64,000 bases of DNA from Sphaerodactylus townsendi (taxonomy: Eukaryota), in NCBI RefSeq assembly GCF_021028975.2, contig NC_059427.1, positions 99,696,001-99,760,000 of the forward strand, given 5' to 3'. A program made the translations under genes and the position numbers. Of this stretch, positions 10,485 to 56,249 are shown in pieces. The notes below the pieces were generated by a model, which was given only the letters and a program-made list of their open reading frames with translations, was not told the DNA's origin and did not search any database. Position 1 is the stretch's first letter. Every line of letters begins with the position of its first letter.

Positions 10485-10727
10485 NNNNNNNNNNNNNNNN
10501 NNNNNNNNNNNNNNNNNNNNNNNNNNNNNNNNNNNNNNNNNNNNNNNNNNNNNNNNNNNNNNNNNNNNNNNNNNNNNNNNNNNNNNNNNNNNNNNNNNNN
10601 NNNNNNNNNNNNNNNNNNNNNNNNNNNNNNNNNNNNNNNNNNNNNNNNNNNNNNNNNNNNNNNNNNNNNNNNNNNNNNNNNNNNNNNNNNNNNNNNNNNN
10701 NNNNNNNNNNNNNNNNNNNNNNNNNNN
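10485..10727. other. Assembly gap (N run)
   Basis: Ns. Confidence 1.
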
Positions 10728-13802: not shown

Positions 13803-16399
13803 GTCTAGATCTAGCAGAAAGCATCCCCCTACTAAGTACCTGACTGCTCCAAACTCTAGCTGAAGCTGAAATGTTATTGAAAGAAATGTCAGACATTGTA
13901 ATTAACTGTCCTCAGGTGAGAGCCTATTATGAATTTCCTATAATACTGGTGTGGTTCTGTGGGAGGGGAGACAACTATTTTTAATTTCCTGTGGCAGGAA
14001 ATACATTCCTTGAAACAATTGTGTCTGTTAGCTTGGGACAGGACCAAAACATTACGTCTTTGATTATCATAACATCCTGCATAATGCAATAGGTGAAATC
14101 ATAACATCTGTTGAAATCTATTAGGTCATCAAGACACTGAAGAGTGAAGTAAACTCATTTTTAGATTATCTATTTTTAACGCTGTAAATATCCAGCAGTT
14201 GCTCAATGGCTGAATTGGAAGAAGTAAAAAGTACATCTGTTTGGGGATGTTGCAATCATTACTACCATGAAAGCCCAATATATTATTTCGGTCTTCTCCA
14301 AGGTTTGGAAGTTCTGTCTGTTGTTAAAGGGACAGTTTGCTTGAGAAGACAGAAAACATTTGAGGCTTCAGTATCTTTACAATAATCTGTGTATTAAAAA
14401 GGATTAGGTAGAACAAGTATTTGGAGGCACAAAAGAAAGCACACACAAACAAGCAAGTATGATGATATTAATCCCACTTCTAACTCTACCCTCATTCTTC
14501 AGACATTTTGTCAGAGAGGTTGCAGAGTGGTTCCAAGTAGAGTGTTGTCATCCCCATCCTTAATGATAGAGAAGACAAACCAGTTCTACAAAAAGGCAAC
14601 TTCATTTCTCATCAGTGGTCATTATCCAGCAAGGTGAAAGAAAATGCACTTCAGCAAGGTGAAAGAAAATGCAAATATTGCTCCAGTTGACAGTGTCCAT
14701 TGCAGATTTAAGTTCTTTCTAGAATGTGACCACCGAAACCTACTAGAATGTCTATGACATCCCTAATGACTGTCAGTACCAATTTTGAAATTGAGCTCAT
14801 GAGCACGTCCCAGGGGTACCGTGATAATGCTATCGCCCCCCCCCCAGTTTGCAGAATTCCCCCCCCCCTGTACCAATCAAGCTGCCAATGGCAATAGCAA
14901 CCATGGCCTCCGGCCCTCCCTGGCCTCCCTGTCAGCCTATCGACCTGAAAATCTCCATGTGCGCATTGTGGGGGTCACAAGGCTGGGCAAGGGTGCTTGT
15001 GGGCTGGCAAACTGGGCCCTATGAGCCGCTGACCTGCCAGAGCCTGTGCTGGCCTACTGACTTGGCCCCTTCCGGCCTGACCAGTGGTAGACCTGGGCCC
15101 CTTCCAACCTGTCTAGTGGTAGATCTGGCCTCCTTCCATCCTGCCCAGCAGTAGACCTGGGCCTCTTCCAACTTGACTAGCAGGACATCTGGGCGCTCCT
15201 CCATGAGATCAGCAGATGGCTCGATCTCTCTCCCCTCCATATCTAGGGAAAATGGAGCTGGTGGGGGGGTGCCCCCCGAAAAATTCAGATTTTGCCCCAG
15301 GGTCCATTTTTCCTAGATATGCCTCTACCCGCTGGTGTCTGCAAGAACGTGGAGCTGGTCTAAAGGCCAGGGCCTGCCACAAGGTCAGCAGCCACTTCCT
15401 CCACTGCCCTCAATGCTTCCCTTCACCCTGGGAGGGGAAGGTGGGGAAAGTGGCAACCAGGGGCACTGGGAAGGGAAGGTGGGGGTGGCAGGGGCATACC
15501 ACACATAGGGATCATGAGATATGAAGGATGAGGTCAAGGGTACCATGATGTTGAAAAGGTAGGGAAACACTGGTACGAGGTTTACCAGATCTAACAATCA
15601 GCAATGATATGTTGTACAATGCACGCAAACAATCACTGGATTGTTCTGAAGTGCTGGCAAAAATATTTCCAATGGTTTTCTGCTTCTGGAAGTTTTCTTG
15701 GAGTGACGGAAAATATGCTAGGTTTTGTTTTCAGCTTTATCAGAGTGTACTTTCTTCAAACATTCCTGAAGCCTGGAAGGTTTGTGGTTGCTATTGATTA
15801 TTTGGTGCTGATACTTCAGATAATCCACACTATATTGCCTGCACTTCTTGGTTTGTTGTGCAGCTGCCATATTTTATTCAGGAACAAAACATATAAGTTC
15901 CTTTTAAAAGTCATTTGTGAAAGCCACTTAGGATCCAAGGAAAGAAGGATTCAAAGCTTGCTGGGATTTTGAAAAAGCATCAAATTGATGAGTCATATCA
16001 AATAAACTTCAGTTGCTCCTTCCAGACATTTCCCTCGCTGTGTTAAAAGAAACCCTCCATTCCCTAGTGAACAATAAAAATAGCATCTACGCAATGTGGT
16101 GGATCCTATCCCTATTCTTCTACTCCACTGAGCAAAGTTTGATGCCTTCCTCCAGCCAACTTGAGTGGCTCTCCCCAATAAAACAGTTACAATTTTGAGG
16201 ATGATTGCTCAGGATGGAGGTATGCTCCTTGAAGGATTGTTGGATCCACCCTACTGTGTACAAGGGGAACACATCTCTTACACGTGACTTGGACCAATGA
16301 CAAAACACTGAACCATCATGGAACATTGAACAGACCTAAGTATGACACAGCTAATCTTCCAGGCTACTCAGACATTTCTTCTTACTTGAGGTGTGTGAA

Positions 16400-33199: not shown

Positions 33200-34497
33200 T
33201 TCTTCTCCTCAGCATATACGGGGACATATGGGGACTTTTGCCCTGGATGTGCTGCTGTTCGGTCACATGGGGGATAAACATTTTTCCCCACACCCCTCCT
33301 CCTTCCCCCCTTGGCCCAGCCCGGCCCCACCAGGCTGCTCCTTCACATGGCGGAGCCTCCACCAGCTGAAAGAGAAGCCTGGCGGGGCTGCCACTGGGGC
33401 CGCCAGACTGCCCTGGACTGCTGCCTATGGGAAGTGGGATGTGGACGCGGGGGGGGGGGGGGGTTGCGGGGCAGGAAATCTTGCCCCCTGCTTTCATCAG
33501 CCCAGCTTGAGTTGGGATGGGGCTGCTTTCTCCAGGCTTTCTGCTGCCTGGAGAACTTGAAGTAGGATGGGGTGGGAAAGCTCTCACAAGGTTTGGCGAG
33601 AGCTTCCCCACCTCTGCTCATCCTGAAGCTTCCTGAGCCACCAACAGCCTGGAGAGAGCTTCCTTGCCCCATGGCCTGGGGAGCTTGAAGATTGGCAGGG
33701 TGGGAAAGGTCTTGTCAAGCTCTCTGCAGTCCAGCTTGAGTTGCGATGGGGGGCGCTTTCTCTGGGTCTTCTGAGGCACAGGGAGTTTGAAGGGGAGGCA
33801 GCTACCGCCAGGCTTGGCGAGAGCTTCCCCACCTCTGCTCACCCCAAAGCTTACCAGGCTGCTGGGAGCCTGGCGAGAGCTTCCCTCCCCGCAGCCTGGG
33901 GAGCTTCAGGGTGAGTGGAGGTGAGGAAGCTCTCGCTGAGCCTGGCAAGAACTGCCAACCCTGCCCCCTGCAAGATCCCTGGGCCGCAGAAAGTCCAGAG
34001 AGAATCACCTTCACCCCCTTGCTACCTTCCCCCACCTCTAGCCACCCTCTCCAACCCCTAGCCACCCCTTCACAGTCTTCCCCACCACTACCCATTCCTT
34101 CCCATCTTCCCCACCCCTAGCCACCCCTTGCCCCCTACCCCCACCCCTTCCCATTTTACCCACCTCTAGCCTTCCCTTCCCATCTCCCCCTCCTAACCAT
34201 CCCTTGCCACCTTCTCCCTATCCACCCCTTCCCATCCCTTGCCTCCCCTTTCCATTTTTCCCACCCCTAGTCATCCCTTCCCATCTCCCCCACACCTTGC
34301 TACCGCTTGCCACCTTTCCCCACCCCTAGCTACCCCTTGACACCCTCTCCAAACCTACCCCCCACCCCTAGCCACCTCTTCCCATTTCCCCCTGAGTTCC
34401 ACCCCTAGCCACCTCTTTCCCATGGGGTCGGGGGTGCGGCTGCCCATATTGGGGGTGGGGGGACTCAGACTTTGCCCTGGGCTCCATTTTCCCTAGC
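33200..34497. repeat. GC-rich repeat element in the last KCNIP1 intron, with internal duplications and a C-rich degenerate minisatellite (34010-34420); its end resembles 15240-15330
   Basis: Repeated gagagcttccccacctctgctca and cccacccctagccacc units; terminal ttgccc..gg.tccatttt.cctag. Confidence 0.55.
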
Positions 34498-35616: not shown

Positions 35617-36584
35617 CTAGAATCATGCAAATCAAAACACAAAAAAGGACTTTAGAAACCTCAAATAGAGTAGAAATGACACAAGTTTGCTTTCCAGTAC
35701 TATTTGTCAACAGATAAAATGCATATGGGTCAAATTGGGAACAGGAAAAACAGATGTTTTTCCTATGCAGTTTTAACATTTGAAACCACATCAGACCATT
35801 TTTTCCCTTTGAAAGCTAACAAAAGTTTAGGGGTATCTATGTCCACTGTTACCCATAAAACTCTTCTCAGGAACAGGTACAAAAAGTTTCTATCCCTGCC
35901 CCATATGTTTGTATGGCCCAAATCTCAACTGTCTAGATTTTGACTTCATGTTAAATGTTGGGAGAGTCTAACTCTTCCAATCTCTCATCCAGATGTTTGC
36001 TGATGCTATGTAACTTTTTTCTCAGTCACAGAAAGAAAGGCAGGCAGGGCAAGAATGCCTCTTACTATTAACTGGTGAATTGATCTTGAATAGAAAAACT
36101 GACCAGGTCTCAATATCACAGACATCTTAATGAGTTTATTGATATCTGCTGAACTTCTATAAAATTCACAATAGAAGGTACAATATGACAGTCCTAATTC
36201 CAAGGACCAATAATCCCCCCCCCCTCATCTATGGAATTATGCGTGAAGAAAAAACAGACCAAATGAATACCTTTCTCTCTGGCTCTTTATCAGTTCTGAG
36301 TATTATAAAGTATAGTAACGATAGACAAGTAAGAAAATGCAACATAGGCATTATCATGCCATTCAAGTGTAAAAGGCATAGAGAGTTTCCCCATGTTTCC
36401 CAGAGTTTTCTTTGCTCTACTTCCTTCCATCCCTTCAAAATATGACTTTCAGAATCACAGAATTTTCACAGAGGAACAGTTGCGAGGATTGACAGGCTGG
36501 AGTGAGCTGAGACAAGGTGATGGAATCGCTCCCCTCCCCTCAATCTGTACATGCAGAACAAGGCATTTCAACTCCTTTCTTCTC

Positions 36585-36896
36585 TGTAAAGGATTCAATG
36601 GTGTTGATGGCCCGAGGTCAGCATACAGGCCTTGACTACATTCACAACCGAGGCTGATGGGCCAGCTTCTCTTGGCCGGCGGAGACCTTATCTCTCTTGA
36701 GGGAGATGAGACCTCCGTTCCCATGGGAATCGGGGAGGGATGGGATGGACAGGATTATAACCTGTGTGCCTTCTGGTGAGGGAGATATTATTCCTGCCAC
36801 CCCGTGTCACATGCGTGAGCTTTCTAGGATGTCTGAATAAGCGGTCTTTTACACCCAAAAAAGCCTTTTATTTCTGCTTCTATGGAATTCCTTACA
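36585..36896 (+). repeat. 5' LTR (312 bp)
   Basis: TG...CA ends; TATAA at 36756-36760; direct repeat of 42697-42998. Confidence 0.95.
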
Positions 36897-36898
36897 TT

Positions 36899-36909
36899 GT
36901 GGCAGGAAT
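36899..36909 (+). promoter_or_regulatory. Primer binding site GTGGCAGGAAT, complementary to LTR sequence ATTCCTGCCAC (self-priming type)
   Basis: Starts 3 nt after the 5' LTR end; exact reverse complement of 36790-36800 and 42898-42908. Confidence 0.85.
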
Positions 36910-38249
36910 CAATGGATTCATCTATCTTCCTAGTGCAGTGGACCCTCTGGTGTCTCGGCATGGAGAGGTTGAATATTCCCTGTGGAAGGTGCGGTGCAGC
37001 CCCAAAGGAGCTCGAGCTTTCCCTTCTGGATTTGGAGGAACCCGGCAGGAGAAGCGGGTCTGCGCTGGTAACTCTTTCCGTCTCGTCAGTATCGACCACG
37101 AGTCTTCCCTTACCCGCCCGTTGGGACGGAGGACGAGAGGCGACCATGGGGACCTACATGAAATTGGATTTGGAAGCTGTCTATGGATCGGCGCCTGTGG
37201 TCCGGATATCTGCCGGATTTTCATTATGGATTACAAACCTCAGATTACAGCCTGTCACAGGAGGAGGCGGGTCTGACCACCTTTCATCGCGGCAACACAG
37301 GAGTCCATTGAGAGCGATTCCTGGACTCGTATTTTGGTGATACTCCCAGAATCCCGTGGCATAGCCACTACAGGGGCCCGTCCGAAGACCACCGTTGAAG
37401 CGGGACTATGTACCGAGGGATTGGGAGATTGTCGTGCCAGCTCGGTCCCGGACCCCCCCAGATCCCGGACAGCAGCTGCACCACAGAGATGCCCGATGGA
37501 GCCACCCGGTGGGACTTGCGATGTCCTCACAGCTCGAGATGAAGAGAGGAATCCGAAGAAAGCCTGCATTCCCCATCGGATCTATTCCCCTCTCCCCATC
37601 AGCGAAAGAAGAGCTGGGATGAGGGAAGTGAGGCCCGACTGCGAGATGTAAAGAAGCATGGGGCCGTGAGCGCCAGCTATGGGAAGAGGAGCGAGAGCAG
37701 CTGCAGCAAGCGTGAAAACCTGCAAAGAGACCGGGGAACAGCGAGCAAAGGAAATCCCAACTTCGGGTGGACCCGTTGCCAAAGGCGGCTACAAGCGGCA
37801 ATATGTGCAGAGACCTATCGGTCCATGATAAAGTCCTGGAACACTCCAAAACTGGACTTACAGCGTCAGCAGCGTTCAGGCCTTTAGCGTGCACATAAAG
37901 TGAACTAACTGCAGCTGTTCAGCGAGGGCGAATTGGCCAAACGCTGGAGCGAGAGAAGCGCTTTTGCATCGCGCCAAGATGCATTGACTTCGCCAAGGAG
38001 AGCTGGCAGCGGAGAGGAACTGAAGAAGCGGCAGCAGAACAGGATGCCCCAGAAGTTGGAGTCACGCTGTCACTGGGTACGGCGGCCAGTATGAAGGGCC
38101 GGCGGCTGCTGGGTCCTGCCACCTTCCAGGACCGGCTCCCCACCAGAACACCAGCGGCACCGGCGTTGGAGTACCTCCGCGATTCCGGCCCCTGCGGCTG
38201 CCTCAACCTGCGCGGCCGCCTTAGCGCCAAGGAGCGTGGAGAGAGGATA

Positions 38250-41200
38250 TTACGAAGACCTCCAATACCTGCCCACGTTTTGATGGGACCGGCTTCCAAA
38301 CTTCCCTACTTCATCCCCTTGCAACTTTCGATGCCCACATGGAGGACTATGGCCCGGTTTATACCCGGTCTGAGCTGGCGAAAAAATGTCTGAGGACATC
38401 GGCTCACTTGCGTCCTGGATGGGGAAGCGACAGCCCGACGCTGGTTTAATGACTCTTTTGAACCTGCAAGATGAAGAATACCGCCGCGGTGCGAAGCGTT
38501 CCTCCAAACCTTAAGGAGGCTGCGCTTCCAAGATCGGGTGCTGAAAATGAAGCTATTAGCACCATCAAATCTATTCAGCAAGGCAACGGCTTCGTTTGCA
38601 GAAATTTGCCCGTGAATTGCGATCGCGGCTATGGGCCTCCTCCTGAGTGGCCAATGGCATGAAATGTGAAGATACTTCTGCCGGATGCTGTCGATGGCGG
38701 AAGCTGCGTGAAAGCAGTGTTTTAATTCGGATCCCCAGCACCTGTGCTGATTGGATAAATTAGGATCCCCAGAGTAGGCGTCCCGTTTGAATGCGGCTTC
38801 CGTGCGGGGGGCATACGCGCCAAAACCATCACTACGACCACCACTTTCGCGACCACCAAATAGCCAAGCCCAGCAGCCTCTACGAGACCACCTCAGAAGC
38901 CGTAAGCCCGACTGGGATGTGTCTTTACTCGCGGAGGACGGGTCATCTGGCAGCCAACTGCCGAAAAAACAGAAGCCAACAGCTCCGACGCGCGCCCCAT
39001 CTGCCGCAAGCCACCATAAAATCCGGGCCGCCCCAACAGAGCTCGTCTAAGGCAGTTGCGAGGCTGACCCAGAGGAGGGGAAGCAGCTGTTGCCTTTGCT
39101 TCGGCCCCTTATGGATATGGGTTACGACTCCAGGCAGCGGTGAGTGAAGGTGGCAGCTCCCATTCTGATCAAGTGTTTCTGGCCAACCCGCTAAAGCATG
39201 CCGTAGGTATTACCAGCCTCAGCCCTTGTAAGATTCTGGGTGCTCCCATTGTTTAATCACGACTGGGTAGCAGAGGAACTAAGGTCTGAACCGAGTCCCC
39301 TGTAGTAAGCCCATACCATTCACCCAAATGGGCTGGCAGTCACCTCTTCGGGAAGGCGAAGGACGGACCCAGTTCAAAGCATGGCAGGTTCTCCTCCATT
39401 TCTTTGCTGACCATTTGGGAGAAAATTGGTTTTATTCTGAAGCCAGTGGCTATGGAAACACTCCCATAGTTCTGGGCATACCGCCATGGTTGTTGTTGCA
39501 TGAACCAAAATTCACATTTGGAAAGAAAGGGATCTTCGAATTCACTGACCCTCCCTCACGGAGAACACACATGAATTGGGGGCTTCGGCTTCTCCTGGCA
39601 TTACCCCCCCCCGGCTTCATCAGCGTGCTGCGGCTCTAATTGCTCCGATTCTACGCGGCATTCCCACGACTTACCAGGATTTAGCCAGAGTATTTCAGGA
39701 GCAGAGAATCACGATCAGTTGCCACCCATAGAGACACTGACTGCAAAATCATTACACTACAGCCAGAGCAGCTGCTTAAAGGTAGAATCTACCGCATGAG
39801 TCCCCAATGAGGAGAAGGAGCCGTGCCTTCTGTAGACAAGAACCTAAACTCAGCGGGTTCATACGGCCCGAACTCACCAAACACACACATGCTGCCCTGT
39901 ATTGTTTGTTAAAAAGGATGGGTCTTTACTGACTCTGCACAGATTACCGAGGACTGTCAATGCGGTCTCCTGTCCAATAAATACCCTTTGCCATTAATCC
40001 AAGGACCTTTTAGGCGCGTTGGGCAAGGGGCGCATCTTTACTAAAGTTGGACTTGAGAGGAAGCTTACTACAGGGGTCCAGAATGGAAGGCTATGAACAC
40101 TTGACTGCATTTGCCTGAAGTTTGGACAGTTTCAATACTTAATAATGCCATTCGGGTTGAAATTAGGGCCCCGAACTTTTATAGTATTATCAGCTTGAAG
40201 TTCTCCATGATTTATTGTACAGAGGGGTAGTGGTATACTTAGATGACGTGTTTTAATTTATTCGCCAAACCATGGAAGATCATGAAGCATTGGTTGAGGG
40301 AAGTGTTGAAGCGTTTGCTCAACAACTCCCTCTTTGCCAAACTTTCTAAATGTTGTTTCCACCAAACTTCTATCGCCTATTTTGGGTTACAGGATCTTAG
40401 CCGAGGGGCTAAAATGGATCCTGCTAAGATTGATGCAGTCCTCAATGGCCTGCCCTACTGTCGAAAGGAGACTCCAATCTTTCCCTAGGTTTTGCTAATT
40501 TCTGTCGTGACTTTATACCCCAATTAGCTAGACGGACTCTCCCACTCACGGAACCTCTTACAGCACTAGGGTAGAGATCCACGAACTGCACCAAGCCGGG
40601 GCCCCTTTCCTGGTCTAAAGAATGTCAGACAGCCTTTCAGCTTTTAAAATCTGCTTTTACTACGGAACCTATCCTGAAACACCCTGACCCCAGATCTCCG
40701 TTTGTGGTTCCGCGTGGATGCCTCCCGGACAAAGCGTGAGGCAGCCCTGTTGCAGAAGGAAAATAAAGATGATAGAGCTGGTTCGATATGCTTATTTATC
40801 AAAGAAATTCTCCGGTGCTGAGCTCAACTGGACTGTTGGGGATGTCACAAAGACTCTGACCATCAAAGTGCTTCACTCTCCACTTAAGTCACTGGCTGGA
40901 GAGATAAACACCCCTTCAGAAAGTTTGGTGGGATCACAGAGCAGCAGCCCTCTCCACCCCCCCTCAAGATGTCCATGAAACAACCCGTTGGGCGATTTCT
41001 TTTCACCGTTTCTCTTTCACTGTCCATTTTTCCCGGAAAAAACCAATAAACTAGCTGATGCGCTCTCGGCGCCCTACCACGAGGGAGGGTGGAGCTACCT
41101 TACGGGGACATTCAGCACTGTTCTCTCCCCTCCCAATTGCTGGGGCTGGCTGTCACCCGATCTCAGGCGACCACTCCTCCTTCTCTACCCATTCCCAACC

Positions 41201-42630
41201 CTGGTCTCTCTCCCTTTCCTCACGGGAACTCGGAAGGCCAGGGGCTGCGGCGAGTAACCCTACCAGCGGGAGGAAGGTGACTCCCAGTTGCGTCTGGAGA
41301 ATGGTGTTTTGGCCGGCGGGGGGATTGTTGAGTACGTGCCTCCCCCCCCTCAGTAAGCAGGTTCTCGGAAGGCCTGTCATGATGCCCGCTCAGCTGGACA
41401 TTTTGGCTTCCTAAAAACTCTGCATTTGGCCCGCCATCAATTTTGGTGGCTTACCCCGATCTTTTCTGAGACATTGAAGGCGTATATTAAAAGGTTGCTC
41501 TGTTTGTCGCGGGAAGCCAAGAACATTCGGGGAAAACCCATGGTCTGTTGAAACCTCTCCCGGTGGCCTCCGCCCTGGAAGTCATCTCCATGGATTTTAT
41601 TACGGTTGCCAGAAAGTCAGGGGCAACCACGGTCTTGTGGGTGGTGGTGGACTTATTTTCTAAATAAGCCCATTTTATCCCATGTGCTTCCATCCCTCCA
41701 TCTCTAGGATTAGTAGCGTCTGTTCATTCCAGCATATTTATTCGTCTACACTCCGCCCCCGTTAAGGTGGTCTCCGACCGCGGGCCCCAATTCATTTCAA
41801 AATTCTGGAAGGCTTTTCTAGGATTGTTGGGGGCATGCCCGGCGGTTAAGCCCTACCACGTTCAAAGTGACGGTGAGTCAGAGAGCAGACAGAACCCTGG
41901 AGCAGTATTGTTCACGTTGTTACACCAACCTACCACCAAGACGAGGAGAATTTGGTGCCGGAAGGCTAATTCCGTTTGCAGAATCGCCTATAATAATGCG
42001 GTTCATAGCAGTACAAAAAAAGACCCCGCCGAAATTGTTGTCTAGTCGGTCCTTCCCTCTGTTGCCACCAACTTCCTCTTGCGGAAGCATTGGATCCTCC
42101 GGGTTTCAGCAGTGGATTTCATCTCTGGCGAGGGTGGGAAAATGGATCCCGAACTGCCTTACAACCAGAGCTAAAGACTCCCAAAAACTTCAAAGCGGAT
42201 TAAGCACAGCTCGGGATTTCCCTTTCGCGTGTGAAACGCCTGGGTGTGTTTGTCTACCAAAAATCTCAGAAGGCGTTACATAAATTTTCAAAAAAAAAAA
42301 AACTAGGCAAAAGATTCATTGGGACCTTTTTTCAGATTACCTAAAGTGATTAATGATGTCACTGCCCGATTGGACTTGCCTAATTCCTCTAAGTAATATC
42401 CATCCATCTTCCATTTCGGATTTACTCAAGGGAGGCTCCGTTTCCGATGCCTGTACGACCAGCGGAGAGACCCCCACCGACTATTATTGATGGCACACAA
42501 GCATTCACGAAGTGTACATGCCATCCTGGACTCTGCGCTTTGTCATAGCGGCTTGCAATATTTAGTCTCTTAGGTGGGGTATTCCTCTAGGTATAATCAA
42601 TGGGTTTATTCCGAAAATATTGGCCCACGC
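38250..42630 (+). pseudogene. gag-pol polyprotein (gag, protease, RT, RNase H, integrase, chromodomain), broken by many frameshifts
   Basis: Motifs occur in Gypsy order PR-RT-RH-IN-CHD but scattered across all three plus frames, e.g. ORF-track VSDRGPQFISKFWKAFL, VLKRLLNNSLFAKLSKCCF, GYSSRYNQWVYSENI. Confidence 0.9.
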
Positions 42631-42683
42631 CCTCATTTCTGCTTTCCATGCACCTTTCGCACAAACCTGGGGGAAAGTCTTTT

Positions 42684-42696
42684 AAGGGAGGCAGAG
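42684..42696 (+). promoter_or_regulatory. Polypurine tract AAGGGAGGCAGAG
   Basis: Purine run directly abutting the 3' LTR. Confidence 0.85.
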
Positions 42697-42998
42697 TGTA
42701 AAGGATTCAATAGTGTTGATGGCCGGGTCAGCCTTACAGCCTGGCCCAACTACATTCCACAGCGAGGCGATGGGCCAACTATAAGGCGGAGACCTTATCT
42801 CTCTTGCGAGGAGATAGTGAGACCTCCGTTCCCATAGGAATCCGGGAGGGGGATGGGATGGACAGAGTTATAACCTGTGCTTCTGGCGGGAGATATTATT
42901 CCTGCCACGGCGTGTACGTGAGCTTTCTAGGATGTCTGAATAAACGGTCTTTTACACCCAAAAAGCCTTTTATTTCTGCTTCTATGGAATTCCTTACA
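42697..42998 (+). repeat. 3' LTR (302 bp)
   Basis: TG...CA ends; TATAA at 42869-42873; AATAAA ~42939; preceded by the PPT. Confidence 0.95.
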
Positions 42999-45475
42999 TT
43001 CTCCCTATTCCAGCCCATCCCCACCTGTGCAGTTGTTTCTTCATATGAGCCCTGCAGTTCTGGGGCTGATCCCTCCAGAGGTTGAAATGAGACATAGTAA
43101 TGGAGAGGAAAGCTGGAGAACTATATGTTTGGTGCAGGGAATGGTAGGATAGGATATTGCCCAGTGTGTTTTCTGCAACATAAAATGTCCAGCTAAATCT
43201 AATAGTCCCAACAAGATGGCTTACTGTTTTCATACAAATAATCTTTGAATATGCTCAGAATGTTATTCGGTAGCCATCAACATCAGCCAGCTTAAATCAG
43301 CAAAATGAATTATAGAGCTTGTCATTTATTTATATATATATATTCATTTACATATGCATTTTGCAAGAATCCATGCAGACACACTGTTTGGAGATGGTCA
43401 TGCTCTGGTGATTTTATGTAAGAAAGCACTGCCAGTGTCCTTGGTGAACATCTTTTTCACCACCATGATGAAAGATTGTTCCGTTATCTGGCTTGTTTCA
43501 TGTATCCAGCAGAACTTATGAACTGCAGACTGTTCCATTTGCATGAAAAGCCCCCAAGTTCTCTGTAAGAATTTTCTGGCACAACTCGTGGCTCAAAAGG
43601 AATAATTAGTTCACGTAATTTATTGAACATATTGAGGGGGGTTGTTGCCATGAAAATCAGCAAAGTTGTTACAGACTGAAATGGCCAAGTGGGCATATGG
43701 TGTTCCATGCTTTGTAAATTTATCTATGAGATTCATTATTACTGTGACCATAAGTGTGCTGTGAACCCATTCCTTGTATTTATCTTCATCCAACAAAATT
43801 GGGTTGAAGAGATCGGATTCAGACATTTTGTTCTTTCAAAGACTTGTTTCAGGCAAAATATATCCCAGCATTACATTGGTTCCTGTTTCTAAAACATACT
43901 GGTTAATCCATGCAACATATTTGTCTACAGGGTATATAGACAGGTTTCCTACATAGGGTATCACACATAGGATATGAGAGATTTAAGCATGGGAGTCACA
44001 GACACTTGTTTAATGCTAATTAAATTAGATTTGACAAAAGGAGATTCTTGAACAGATCTTCTCAACATTTTTAAGTGGAAAGAGTGGCCGTGTGGGGCCC
44101 CATTTGGATCATGATTGCAAAATGTGGGGAGAGGGCCTTAATTCCTCCCACATCATATGCTTTCACAAATAACCTAAACTTTTGCTAACAAATTGGGGGC
44201 CTGTGTTGGTCCTGTTTCCATTTTAAAATGTTGGTAAGATCTGATGAGGGATGTTGTAGCATGTTGTAGCATCTCATATGGTTGGGCCCCAGCCATCCAT
44301 TACATTCAAGATAACCAGGAACACAGTTCTTCACCTCTGTTTCATTCATATGTCATTCAAAATGTCTTTGAATAGTTTAAAAAGTATTCTTTGGTGCTAG
44401 AGGCTCCACAGAAAAAGAGAAGACGTTCTAGTAAACTTATGGAAGCTGTAGCTTCTTGTTGCAACTCCAAATTCTCTTAGTCATTCAGAATAAACAAAGA
44501 ACTACTCATGAATACCAGGAAGGCCGCCACTAGTCATCTTTAGCAGTACTCTAACAATACTCTACCATTTCTCAGCTTTTTAATTAATCTTTCCAGTCCT
44601 GGCCCCAAGCCACCAAAAAAGAGAAAAAAAAAACAAGGATTAGGCAATCACTGCACAAATTAGCTATTTCTCTTCTGCTCTCTCTCTCCTGCCTCCCTCT
44701 TAGTAAAGGTTACTGAACCCATGTTTAGCAGTGGGAACAAATTAAACTCCATATCTAGGTACTTCTTTAGCAGGGCCAAATCTATAGGGAGCAAAGGCGG
44801 GGTGGGTAGGTACGTGATCCAGGTGGCACTCAGCTGGGGGCAGCTTGTGCGCATGTGGAGAAAAGGCTTGGCCCCAATCCATGCAGGGGCTGCGTAGCCT
44901 CTTCTCCCTTCTCGCTGGCTCTGGTGCAGGAGAAGCCACCTATGGCATCCTCTTTCCCTGGATTTGGTTTTGCTACCCCCTGCTTCTCCTTGGGCACGTT
45001 GGCACCAAGGCTGCAGTGAGGCTTGGGTGATAAAGACTAGTCACCTGGTGGCACCTGTTGCTTATGGTGTGAGTCACCCTTCTGCTGGGCGGTGGCAGCT
45101 TTGGTGAGTAGGTGAGTGGGGGAATGGGCAGCTCTGGCATGCCAAGGAGAAGGACAACTTGGATGCATCTATGCTGGGTTCTCCAGCCAAAACTTCTTGG
45201 CTTGTCCCAGGGCTTTGAGGGTGGCAGTCCCATCTCTTCCCTGTGACTGCAGAACTCAGCTGATGGTCCAGACTAGCCCATCCACCTGGTGTCTTTCCAC
45301 TATCTTCCTCTGCCTGCTTTCCAGGCTGAGTTTATGCACTAACATCTACCTCTTTCCTGCTGTCCAAGGCTAGAGGCCATCTCGAAGTTCCACAGGACTG
45401 CTTTGAGAGGGGCAGGGCAGCACTTGGGGTGGGGCAAGACACTTTTGGGCCTCCTGTACCTCTTTCCAGCATAGA

Positions 45476-45663
45476 TAGGGTTGCCAGCACCAGGTTGGGA
45501 AATACTTGGAGATTTTGGAGATGGAGCTGAGGTTTGACCTATTATGCCATAGAAGCCATTTTCCAAACCGGCCATGTTCTCCAGGGGCACTGATCTCTGT
45601 CACCTGATGATCAGTTGAAATCCCAGGAGATTTTCAGTAACACTCTGGAGGTTGGCAACCATA
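45476..45663. mobile_element. Non-autonomous element with TAGGGTTGCCA-type termini (hAT Blackjack-like). Further copies at ~2150-2330, 25620-25710, 28600-28975, 50587-50802, 50857-51064, 58988-59146 and 62400-62540
   Basis: Termini tagggttgcca...tggcaacc(c/a)ta and a shared core (ccattttctccaggggaactgatctc...). Confidence 0.65.
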
Positions 45664-53397: not shown

Positions 53398-54841
53398 TGT
53401 GACGGGCAATGGAAAAAAAGGTTAATTTGAAGAGACAGTTCTGATAGAAGAGGAGCACAATGAGTTAACCCAGAACTCCCCCCCCCCCCCAATTGGCTGG
53501 CTGAGCTGCAGTTAGCTTTAAAGGCCAGAGGATGTATGCTTGTCTGAAGAGATAGGGACAGACACAGACAGAGATACAGAGTCAGAGAGACATCTGAGAG
53601 TCAGAGAGTCTGTCAGAAAGAGACTGTCATAACCAGAGCGAGGCGAAAAACAGTTTGCGAAAGGCAGAGTGCCAGAGAAAACAAAAAGGCTCTCAAAGCT
53701 GAGAGAAAAAGAAGATTAATTCACCAGGGGATAGACAGCCAGGTGTTGGTGAAGGAAGTCAGGAAGGACAGGGGGAGACCTATTCATGGGGACAATCGTT
53801 AGACCACATGAAGGGCTTAGTCTCTGAGGAGATCACCCCTAGATATGGGACTGGAGGGTCTCTGAGAGTGTGTGTTTTTATGATTGGCAGAGTCAAGATA
53901 GAGTTTAGAGAAACCCCACAGCTTGTTCCAGCCCAGTGTGATACTCTGAGGAAAGGGTGGGTGGTTTAGGCACCAGTTCAGAATCCGGGTAGGAAGGTTT
54001 ACCCTGAAGGAAGTAACAAAGTGTATGAAGATCTATTTTGAACTGAAACATTTTAACTGAAACAGCTAAAGTAAAATTTGTTAAGAACTGACTGTACCAT
54101 CCAAGTATTCCCTGTCTAAGGAAAAGAAAAGCGTAAAAACACTTTGTACAATCAAACTGAGAAATCCTGTAAATAAATTCTTGTTTGGTTTATTGTTAGG
54201 AAGCCTCACACTGATAAACTTTCCCTCAGAGGTGGCAGCATACGATTTCCTAACAGGATTATCCTAGGCCGTTTCCGCACGAATGCGGAAACGGCCGGGT
54301 CAGCGTTTCCGATGCCGACCCGACGACGCTGAGACCGTCCGCACGGACGGTCCTGGAAAGAGCCGGGCAGCCGGCGCCGCGGAGCGCCGGCGCCCGGCCG
54401 ACCTGGCATGTCCCCGGGTCTGGGGACATGCCCCCCTGGCCCTGCGCACCTGCTCCAGCGGCGCAGGGCAGGGGGGCGTGTCCCCAGGCCTCGGCGACGC
54501 GCCGGAGGCCCGGGGACAAGGTAAGTGCCGGGTGGGGGAGGCGTCTCAAAGCCGCTGCAGTTCGCTCGGCAGCGGCTTCGAGGCGGTGTTTCCCCAACAA
54601 GAACGCTTCCGAGTGCTCTGGGGAAACGCCAGCTTCACGGTGGTCGGGTGGCGCGAGGGCGGCGCAGCTGCGATGCAGCTGAGCCCCCTCTGCGAATGGC
54701 GGCCTGGAGACGGCATTTTTGCCATCTCCAGGCCGCCATTAAATGCCCGTGCGGAAACGGCCCTAGAAAGCTTATGTGTGCATGTGTGTGGGGTGTGCCT
54801 GGACTAACAGCTACCCTCAGCCCTCCTGTGTGTGCATCACA
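53398..54841 (+). mobile_element. Probable solo LTR, itself interrupted by the MITE at 54267-54762
   Basis: TGTGA...TCACA ends, GA-rich tract, AATAAA ~54172; interrupts an older repeat. The TSD is imperfect (TTGAG/CAGAG), so the right boundary is uncertain. Confidence 0.45.
54267..54762. mobile_element. Young CpG-rich Harbinger-like MITE
   Basis: Perfect 15-bp TIR GGCCGTTTCCGCACG; 3-bp TSD CTA (54264-66, 54763-65). Confidence 0.85.
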
Positions 54842-56119
54842 CAGAGCAACTATATGGGACATGGATACGGGCTAGGTGCTACACAAAATCAAAGTAACCC
54901 CCCCAAAAAACTATTATTATTGTTATTTAGATTTATTCCTCATCCTCTACAACAGTCTCAGGGTGGATTACAATAAAATCAGGGCAGGATACAATAAAAT
55001 TACTGGAGCAGATACCATTATCTGAAAAAAACAGAAACATGTACCCCACCGCCCCCAAACCCCCCACATTTTTGGCCAAATTAGTGCTGCAGTAACACAC
55101 AATAGTAACAATGGCAGTCTTTTGTCAATTTCCTCTTGCAAAACCAACTTCTCTTGTCAATTTCACTTGCTCCTAACTGTGGACATAGTGCCACCTTAAG
55201 GTTACATCACTAATCCAAGATGAAATTGATAAAACAAATACAATCAACCAGGGTTGTGTCTCCACCCTAACAACATATCTCTAACGTGATGTGACAAAGG
55301 TAATTGTTTGAAAATGGAGATGGGAAGGGTGTGGATAAGAGCCAGGTGTTTGGTGGAATGAAGAAATAAAGTTTGTTTCAACATGATCACATGCTCAAGG
55401 GAAGCTAGCTCAGAAACGAGCTGAGAAAAAAATTACAGCAAAAGTGCTAGAGAAAACACGAGAGGAAAAATGAAGGAAAAATGCTTCTAGAACCAAATCG
55501 AGAAAAAAATGTGGAATTGAAATAAAAAACAGCATTTGATGGCCAGATAAGTTGAAAACAACTTGTGTGGAAAAAGCCGTTACCTTCAACATTGAGATGC
55601 TTACTATATGAAAGGTTGCCAGTTTGAACTTGGGCAATAATTTTGCCATCTCATTTCCCATGAATATATATTGATGACAAATAGCTAGTATATAAATTTT
55701 GGAAAAACCCTGGGAGCCAAATGATTACAGTAATTATTTCAGAGCACACCCAATAAAATAGCCTGGGAGAATAAAGTGTTGACAACCCAGAGAAAGCAGC
55801 AGCATACCAAAGAAGATAACGTGTGTATTACAGTAAATGATGGTATGATTCATTTTGAGAAACTAACATGCCACTTCTCACCACAAAGAAACAGCACACT
55901 CCTAATTTGGATACAATCAATGCCAATTCTACTGGCATGATTTACAGTAACTTCAAAGAGCATCAGTCCGTGGGTTATAGTTGAACTAAATCAAACATAC
56001 ATAAGCATGCAGCACATAGAGCCAGATTATTAGACTACTACAGAGGAGGAATGGGGCTGCAGACCCACAGGGTCTGTAAGTTTGCTCCATGGGGGTATAG
56101 ATAGTCTGAAATGGATGGG

Positions 56120-56249
56120 NNNNNNNNNNNNNNNNNNNNNNNNNNNNNNNNNNNNNNNNNNNNNNNNNNNNNNNNNNNNNNNNNNNNNNNNNNNNNNNNN
56201 NNNNNNNNNNNNNNNNNNNNNNNNNNNNNNNNNNNNNNNNNNNNNNNNN
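56120..56249. other. Assembly gap (N run) inside a KCNIP1 intron
   Basis: Ns. Confidence 1.

What the first reader, a model, noticed from the sequence alone, without database searches (positions are those of the whole stretch)
36756..36909. tRNA-independent (self-priming) architecture in a reptile LTR retrotransposon
Seen: the 11 nt just after the 5' LTR (GTGGCAGGAAT, 36899-36909) are the exact reverse complement of ATTCCTGCCAC inside both LTRs (36790-36800, 42898-42908). That site begins 34 and 29 nt after the start of TATAA, where transcription should start, and it is identical in both LTRs although they differ by many indels. Known: fission-yeast Tf1 primes minus-strand synthesis with the first 11 nt of its own mRNA, released by RNase H, and self-priming has been proposed for vertebrate Tf1/sushi elements. 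Inference: this squamate element uses the same mechanism. The mechanism is known; this instance may be undescribed.
Basis: partly seen in the sequence, partly recalled or inferred. Interest (0 to 1): 0.75.

Follow-up and report, generated by a model that had tools for sequence, protein, structure and literature searches.

The report
Self-priming jumping gene in a lizard
This recently inserted reptile jumping gene very probably starts copying itself with the first 11 letters of its own RNA instead of a host tRNA, which is the already described habit of the group it belongs to, so it is an ordinary new member of that group.

Summary
The complementarity is real. The element is a 6.4-kb chromodomain Ty3/gypsy retrotransposon (36585-42998, TSD TTCTC). 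Its 11-nt PBS starts 2 nt after the 5' LTR and pairs perfectly with a site 29-34 nt after TATAA in both LTRs; 20 of 20,000 shuffles reach 11 nt. That site begins on a Pol II initiator match. The integrase groups with squamate elements, sister to fish and frog sushi-like chromoviruses. Six of six testable relatives, two of them fish-like, show the same layout with other letters (9-11 nt with their own LTR, 4-8 nt swapped). Self-priming is published as the common feature of the Tf1/sushi group, vertebrates included, so this is the expected state of a new member. One supporting argument fails: primer identity between the LTRs is not significant (97 of 302 11-mers are identical), and the indels look like assembly noise in a young, polymorphic insertion. 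The start site, host tRNA set, covariation within the family and cleavage are untested. Tf1's third duplex was not found. The scan noted self-priming signatures before on other DNA (BEL/Pao, diatom copia), none for a reptile gypsy.

The parts
36580..36584 (+). 5' target-site duplication TTCTC
   Evidence: same 5-mer follows the 3' LTR
36585..36896 (+). 5' LTR, 312 bp, TG...CA
   Evidence: aligns to the 3' LTR with 268 matches, 23 mismatches, 13 gap events
36756..36760 (+). TATA-like box TATAA, 34 nt before the primer
   Evidence: function inferred
36788..36794 (+). initiator match YYANWYY with +1 at A36790 (predicted transcription start)
   Evidence: one of 4 such matches in the 5' LTR; consensus recalled; start not mapped
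36790..36800 (+). predicted self-primer (first 11 nt of R)
   Evidence: exact reverse complement of the PBS; pairs in the predicted fold
36815..36895 (+). long R-U5 hairpin; its base (36815-36819 with 36891-36895) is a U5-end duplex next to the PBS
   Evidence: minimum-free-energy folds; prediction only
36836..36841 (+). polyadenylation-signal position (AATAAG here, AATAAA at 42939 in the 3' LTR)
36899..36909 (+). primer-binding site, 2 nt after the LTR
   Evidence: no substitution of 5% or more listed at 36899-36908 in 4 of 4 runs laid
36910..39644 (+). leader, gag and protease region; broken, start not defined
   Evidence: no Pfam family in three frames of 36897-39898; capsid-like and zinc-knuckle-like motifs by eye only
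39645..42658 (+). pol: RT, RNase H, integrase (H2C2, core, SH3) and chromodomain; many frameshifts in this copy
   Evidence: Pfam RT_RNaseH_2 1.3e-6, Integrase_H2C2 3e-6, rve 3e-7, SH3_Tf2-1 0.01, Chromo 0.013; frameshift-aware alignment to squamate Pol proteins
42684..42696 (+). polypurine tract, preceded by a T-rich box
42697..42998 (+). 3' LTR, 302 bp, with TATAA at 42869 and the primer copy at 42898-42908
42999..43003 (+). 3' target-site duplication TTCTC

Best explanation
This is a young copy of a high-copy squamate chromovirus (Ty3/gypsy, vertebrate branch of the Tf1/sushi group) whose family primes minus-strand DNA synthesis as Tf1 does. Pol II starts at about 36790. The first 11 nt of the RNA fold back onto the PBS across an R-U5 hairpin. 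The element's RT/RNase H cuts after the paired segment, and the released 3' end is extended through U5 and R. Shown: the complementarity, its position, the clade, and the same layout in relatives. Inferred from Tf1: the start site, the cut and the extension.
For: Exact 11-nt match, 20 of 20,000 shuffles. The primer starts 29-34 nt after TATAA on an initiator match. The -1/+1 step is pyrimidine-purine in the window, in 6 of 6 relatives with repeat-defined LTR ends and in 8 of 8 relatives picked by the signal, against a background of 0.21-0.25. Helix pair probabilities are 0.62-0.99 for 36790-36960, and the duplex is -18.3 kcal/mol. Tree: squamate clade (8 rows, SH-aLRT 98) sister to fish plus frog (11 rows, 99), together 98. 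Swap control: each of 6 relatives matches its own LTR by 9-11 nt, 1-2 nt after the LTR end, with six different PBS sequences; the 42 swapped pairs give 4-8 nt. In laid contigs no substitution of 5% or more is listed at 36899-36908, while 36911-36918 vary strongly. Literature passages name self-priming as common to Tf1/sushi elements, vertebrates included.
Against: No start site was mapped. The primer bin (36772-36802) had almost no cover (depth 47.6, 65.6, 0, 0), so covariation within the family is untested. Tf1's third duplex (leader with LTR) was not found: best duplex -16.0 against a shuffled mean of -16.9 kcal/mol, with 59% of 1,000 shuffles as good. Helix probability falls to 0.39-0.66 when 36790-37000 is folded. 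In 2 of 6 relatives folded (L039, L025) the helix is absent from the predicted ensemble. A TGG starts 3 nt after the LTR, as in tRNA-type sites, and no host tRNA set could be checked. About 8% of family depth in X1 and X2 has another base at 36909, which would break the terminal pair unless the primer changes too. The tree holds the window by a 120-residue fragment only and has no named Tf1 or sushi-ichi reference.
Confidence: 0.9

Rival explanations
1. The element is primed by a host tRNA. TGG at 36900-36902 pairs with the CCA end, and the match to R is incidental or left over from a self-priming ancestor.
For: TGG lies within 0-5 nt of the LTR end in the window and in none of the 6 relatives tested. 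In this copy the bases at PBS positions 16-20 resemble the complement of a tRNA T-loop (seen; tRNA consensus recalled).
Against: The conserved block ends at about 36909. Position 36914 differs from the window in 86-100% of depth in 4 of 4 runs, and 36911-36918 carry frequent substitutions and deletions, so an 18-nt tRNA site is not a family feature. In a cut table of human tRF-3 sequences, none of 20 occurrences of the needed 8-mer lies in the tRF column; this is a weak proxy. The needed end (U72 with G73) fits no vertebrate cytosolic tRNA that I recall. The rival does not explain the 11-nt match at the predicted +1.
Confidence: 0.05
2. The 5' end pairs with the PBS, but priming differs from Tf1 in detail: another helper structure in place of the three-duplex pretzel, a primer of 10 nt, or a primer taken from a second co-packaged RNA.
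For: Only two of three duplexes are predicted. The first pair is the weakest (probability 0.39-0.84 across folds) and varies in the family.
Against: The bases just after the PBS in this copy differ from most family contigs, and the copy is indel-rich, so the missing duplex may be an artefact. Nested folding programs cannot show pseudoknotted duplexes. This reading overlaps with the best explanation; the figure is for a real mechanistic departure.
Confidence: 0.2
3. The match is chance or an assembly artefact.
For: The element interior is noisy: 10-18 frameshifts per kb in pol. 119 of 20,739 control positions in the window reach 11 nt.
Against: 20 of 20,000 shuffles. The PBS letters agree with the family in 4 of 4 runs, the primer is in both LTRs, and relatives keep the layout with other letters. 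Noise would destroy, not create, a perfect match.
Confidence: 0.02

Closest known systems
Vertebrate chromoviruses of the Tf1/sushi group (GyDB V-clade: sushi-ichi, Amn-ichi, Amn-ni, Amn-san)
   Same: Chromodomain Ty3/gypsy with RT-RH-IN-chromo order; TG...CA LTRs ending in TTACA; 5-bp TSD; PBS 1-2 nt after the LTR, complementary to the LTR. Groups with fish and frog elements. Self-priming is described for the group including vertebrates (passages). The clade is reported in reptiles (passages).
   Different: A separate squamate sub-lineage: 81% identity in matched codons to a gecko integrase, 40-49% to Anolis and Crotalus Pol. Its PBS contains TGG. The 5' region before recognisable gag is much longer than in the fish-like loci, where gag starts about 20 nt after the LTR.
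Tf1/Tf2 of Schizosaccharomyces pombe and Tj1 of S. japonicus
   Same: Self-primer at the RNA 5' end paired with the PBS, and a PBS-adjacent U5 duplex; chromodomain integrase (passages).
   Different: In Tf1 the mechanism is shown by experiment; here it is inferred. The third duplex of the pretzel was not found.
Tcn1 clade (fungi, mosses) and TAR copia elements of plants
   Same: Self-priming predicted by the same criterion: at least 10 nt complementary to the LTR, starting 0-5 nt after it (PMC6317226 passages). The window meets it.
   Different: Other hosts; TAR is Ty1/copia.

Membership tests
Ty3/gypsy LTR retrotransposon | Two LTRs with TG...CA ends, TSD, PBS and PPT | tested here: met
Ty3/gypsy LTR retrotransposon | Pol order RT - RNase H - integrase | tested here: met
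   RNase H-like at about 40611-40709, integrase zinc finger at 41369-41452, core at 41575-41832; colinear alignment to Pol from 39645
Chromovirus | Chromodomain at the integrase C-terminus | tested here: met
   Weak on its own: Pfam Chromo E 0.013, below the curated cut-off, at about 42514-42627. The alignment to chromodomain-bearing Anolis Pol runs to 42658.
Tf1/sushi group (fungi/vertebrates cluster) | RT-IN phylogeny inside the group, apart from plant chromoviruses | tested here: met
   Vertebrate clade of 19 rows at SH-aLRT 98; plant and algal rows form a separate clade at 99. Quick tree, window present as a 120-residue fragment, no named Tf1 or sushi-ichi reference.
Tf1/sushi group (fungi/vertebrates cluster) | PBS complementary (10 nt or more) to the own LTR, starting 0-5 nt after the LTR | tested here: met
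   11 nt at offset 2
Tf1/sushi group (fungi/vertebrates cluster) | Self-primer equals the 5' end of the transcript | tested here: inconclusive
   TATAA at -34/-29 and an initiator match at +1; no start site could be mapped
Tf1/sushi group (fungi/vertebrates cluster) | Three-duplex pretzel structure | tested here: inconclusive
   Central and U5-end duplexes predicted; leader duplex no better than shuffles; the leader of this copy differs from most family contigs
Tf1/sushi group (fungi/vertebrates cluster) | RT/RNase H cleavage releases the primer | not testable with these tools
   needs biochemistry or sequencing of replication intermediates
tRNA-primed LTR element | PBS complementary to the 3' 8-18 nt of a host tRNA | tested here: inconclusive
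   TGG present at offset 3; family conservation stops at about 10-11 nt; no match in a cut human tRF-3 table; host tRNA set not available

The most novel reading that the evidence does not exclude
A currently spreading, very high-copy squamate chromovirus family self-primes with a structure that departs from the Tf1 pretzel: one long R-U5 hairpin brings the RNA 5' end to the PBS and no leader duplex is used. It would be an amniote family in which self-priming intermediates could be seen directly in germ-line RNA and DNA. I know of no experimental demonstration in a vertebrate element (recalled; searches found no paper on reptiles).
Probability: 0.2. Interest if true: 0.4.

Novelty: new member of a known kind. 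Interest (0 to 1): 0.17.

Why it matters
It extends a known mechanism to one more vertebrate lineage and shows that the family is still young and abundant in a squamate. A self-priming element does not depend on host tRNA, so it should escape silencing by 3' tRNA fragments (inference). Annotation pipelines that require a tRNA-type PBS would miss or misread it, the more so as this PBS happens to contain TGG. None of this changes what is known about the Tf1/sushi group.

Tried and rejected
No whole genome is held for the window, so other copies and host tRNA genes could not be read. No other LTR copy in the window; no tRNA or Rfam hit in the window. No RNA holder was listed for the element, which says nothing about expression. 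The family's U5 20-mer was not found in metagenome or viral contigs. Protein-based scans gave 0 and 1 viral loci and no GTDB locus. Of 81 loci, 35 with enough upstream DNA were screened; 17 had a direct repeat around pol and 6 gave a usable LTR end; the others were truncated, assembly overlaps, or had no definable end. Four fish-like loci (L003, L007, L008, L014) have the LTR end but lack the R region and could not be judged; none has TGG within 0-5 nt of the end. Butler et al. 2001 is not held. tRNA lists were not found in the supplements of PMC5605243, PMC5318995 (unreadable) or PMC12716993 (4 of 15 files not searched); a control motif also gave no hit in the two that were searched, so these blanks mean nothing. 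The integrase-only tree (119 columns) was too weak to place the lineage. Rejected: primer identity between LTRs as a sign of selection; LTR divergence as an age estimate; an 18-nt tRNA site.

Full report
The observation. The 11-mer at 36899-36909 is the exact reverse complement of 36790-36800 and 42898-42908, and TATAA starts 34 and 29 nt before these sites. The LTRs span 36585-36896 and 42697-42998, begin with TG, end with CA and are flanked by the duplication TTCTC, so the PBS begins 2 nt after the 5' LTR. A match this long, starting 0-5 nt after the LTR end, arose in 20 of 20,000 dinucleotide shuffles of the LTR and at 119 of 20,739 overlapping control positions in the window. It also meets the published criterion for a predicted self-primer: 10 nt or more, 0-5 nt after the LTR (PMC6317226, methods passage).

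What the element is. Reading three frames with X at stops gives an RNase H-like domain, the integrase zinc finger and core, and weak SH3 and chromodomain hits, in Ty3/gypsy order. The best relative of the integrase piece is a gecko protein at 69% identity, followed mostly by fish-type retrotransposons at about 50%. Full-length chromodomain Pol proteins of Crotalus and Anolis, and a Rhineura relative, came up with the gecko piece as query. In a quick RT-IN tree of 41 rows the window's 120-residue fragment falls in a squamate clade (8 rows, SH-aLRT 98), sister to fish and frog elements (11 rows, 99). Together they form a clade at 98, apart from plant and algal rows. This matches the vertebrate chromovirus clade called V-clade or Amn/sushi, reported from fish, amphibians and reptiles (passages of PMC2774666, PMC4131045, PMC3670739). 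No named Tf1 or sushi-ichi sequence was in the tree.

Evidence for self-priming. The primer starts on a match to the initiator consensus YYANWYY (consensus recalled), one of four such matches in the LTR, at TATA distance. Folded from 36790, the RNA forms the 11-bp helix, which closes a long R-U5 hairpin whose base pairs 36815-36819 with the U5 end at 36891-36895. Pair probabilities are 0.62-0.99 for 36790-36960, 0.39-0.66 for 36790-37000 and 0.58-0.98 for 36790-37150.

Relatives. From 81 fetched loci, 35 were screened and six had an LTR end given by the boundary of the direct repeat. In L021 and L053 I set the end at the nearest ACA, 2-3 nt from the boundary, and I had seen the screening hits before fixing this set, so the test is not blind. 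All six match their own LTR by 9-11 nt, 1-2 nt after the end, each with a different PBS sequence; the 42 swapped combinations give 4-8 nt. Two of them (L004, L010) and a third found by the signal (L002, primer at 789, 30 nt after TATAA) lie inside the vertebrate clade. The primer begins at a pyrimidine-purine step in the window, in 6 of 6 of this set and in 8 of 8 loci picked by the signal, against a background of 0.21-0.25; a TATA-like word lies 27-34 nt upstream in 5 of the 6. The rows are related, so these are not independent trials. The helix was predicted in 4 of 6 relatives folded and absent in L039 and L025.

Within the family. Contigs of four public runs (two organisms, two studies) were laid on 36400-37300. 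Summed depth over U5 is about 2.4 million in X1 against 73 on the flank; this is not a copy number but shows a very abundant family. No substitution of 5% or more is listed at 36899-36908 (the indel table was cut by 50 rows). Position 36909 differs in about 8% of depth in X1 and X2, and 36911-36918 vary strongly (36914 in 86-100%). The conserved block thus has the length of the self-primer helix, not of an 18-nt tRNA site. The primer region was hardly covered, so compensatory change within the family is untested.

An argument that does not hold. The LTRs differ by 23 substitutions and 13 gaps, but 97 of 302 11-mers are still identical, and both LTRs derive from one template at reverse transcription (established knowledge). 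The differences are probably largely noise. Pol has 35-42 frameshifts against 2-6 stops when aligned to five full-length squamate proteins, while controls on three relatives gave 0-8. Matched codons are 81% identical to the gecko protein. CpG is retained (o/e 0.59-0.80 inside, 0.14 in the flanks). A young, polymorphic insertion cannot have old, diverged LTRs, unless they came from two templates.

Rivals. A TGG begins 3 nt after the LTR, which none of the six relatives has, so tRNA priming had to be considered. Against it stand the family variation beyond 36909, no hit in the tRF-3 column of a cut human table (0 of 20 occurrences; PMC4203973 supplement 2; weak), and the unexplained match at the predicted +1. 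The host tRNA set was not available. Tf1 needs three duplexes (bioRxiv 10.1101/2022.12.06.519325, passage). I found two; the leader duplex scored -16.0 against a shuffled mean of -16.9 kcal/mol. The leader of this copy differs from most family contigs, so this is inconclusive.

What is known. [quoted passage not shown] PMC6317226 says self-primers were described in the group from yeast and vertebrates. [quoted passage not shown] I saw passages of these papers, not whole texts. All cite Butler et al. 2001, which is not held; from memory it covers fish, amphibians and mammals and infers the priming from sequence. Two searches for self-priming with lizard or reptile found no paper in the library, which lacks most subscription journals and Repbase reports; supplements of bioRxiv papers were not seen. 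Earlier notes of this scan report self-priming signatures in BEL/Pao and diatom copia elements on other DNA (unchecked) and none for this sequence, place or a reptile gypsy.

Verdict. It is the expected state of a new squamate member of a clade for which self-priming has been in print since 2001. Novelty: new member of a known kind. Interest 0.17.

Noticed in passing
window 36580-36584 / 42999-43003: The insertion looks polymorphic. In runs X1 and X3 (sample S1) one contig matches the flank up to 36584 and runs on about 2.5 kb without lying on the LTR; joined across an empty site it would end at 45508-45519, about 30-40 nt into a repeat-like stretch that starts near 45477. In X2 (sample S2) the flank contig enters the LTR. 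The empty site is inferred from lengths; the onward letters were not seen.
   Followed up: partly
window 39645-42658: pol carries 35-42 frameshifts but only 2-6 stops against five full-length squamate proteins, and CpG is not depleted (o/e 0.59-0.80 against 0.14 in the flanks). This fits uncorrected long-read indels inside a repeat rather than old decay.
   Followed up: partly
window 36585-36789 versus 36790-36896: The two LTRs differ more in U3 (30 events in 205 nt) than in R-U5 (6 in 107; Fisher p 0.024). Uniform noise does not explain this; uneven polishing or U3 from two templates might.
   Followed up: no
window 36887-36892: The U5 end repeats the first six bases of the primer, so it could form a competing hairpin with the 3' half of the PBS. 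It is not in the predicted minimum-energy folds.
   Followed up: no
window 36910-38250: A GC- and CpG-rich stretch of about 1.3 kb lies before the first capsid-like motif seen by eye, with no Pfam hit; fish-like relatives start gag about 20 nt after the LTR. Long leader or N-terminal extension, unresolved.
   Followed up: no
L039:7745-7756: The DNA after the 3' LTR resembles the element's own PBS, as described for integrase-independent Tf1 insertions (PMC11042837 passages).
   Followed up: no
P0001: The closest protein is a gecko gene model that joins an integrase piece to a C2H2 zinc-finger array; probably an annotation artefact.
   Followed up: no
window 54000-55000: CpG-island-like stretch (GC 0.54, CpG o/e 0.88), perhaps a host promoter.
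   Followed up: no
window 34015-34420 and 15063-15215; gaps at 10485-10727 and 56120-56249: A C-rich degenerate tandem array, a 32-bp minisatellite, and two runs of N.
   Followed up: no
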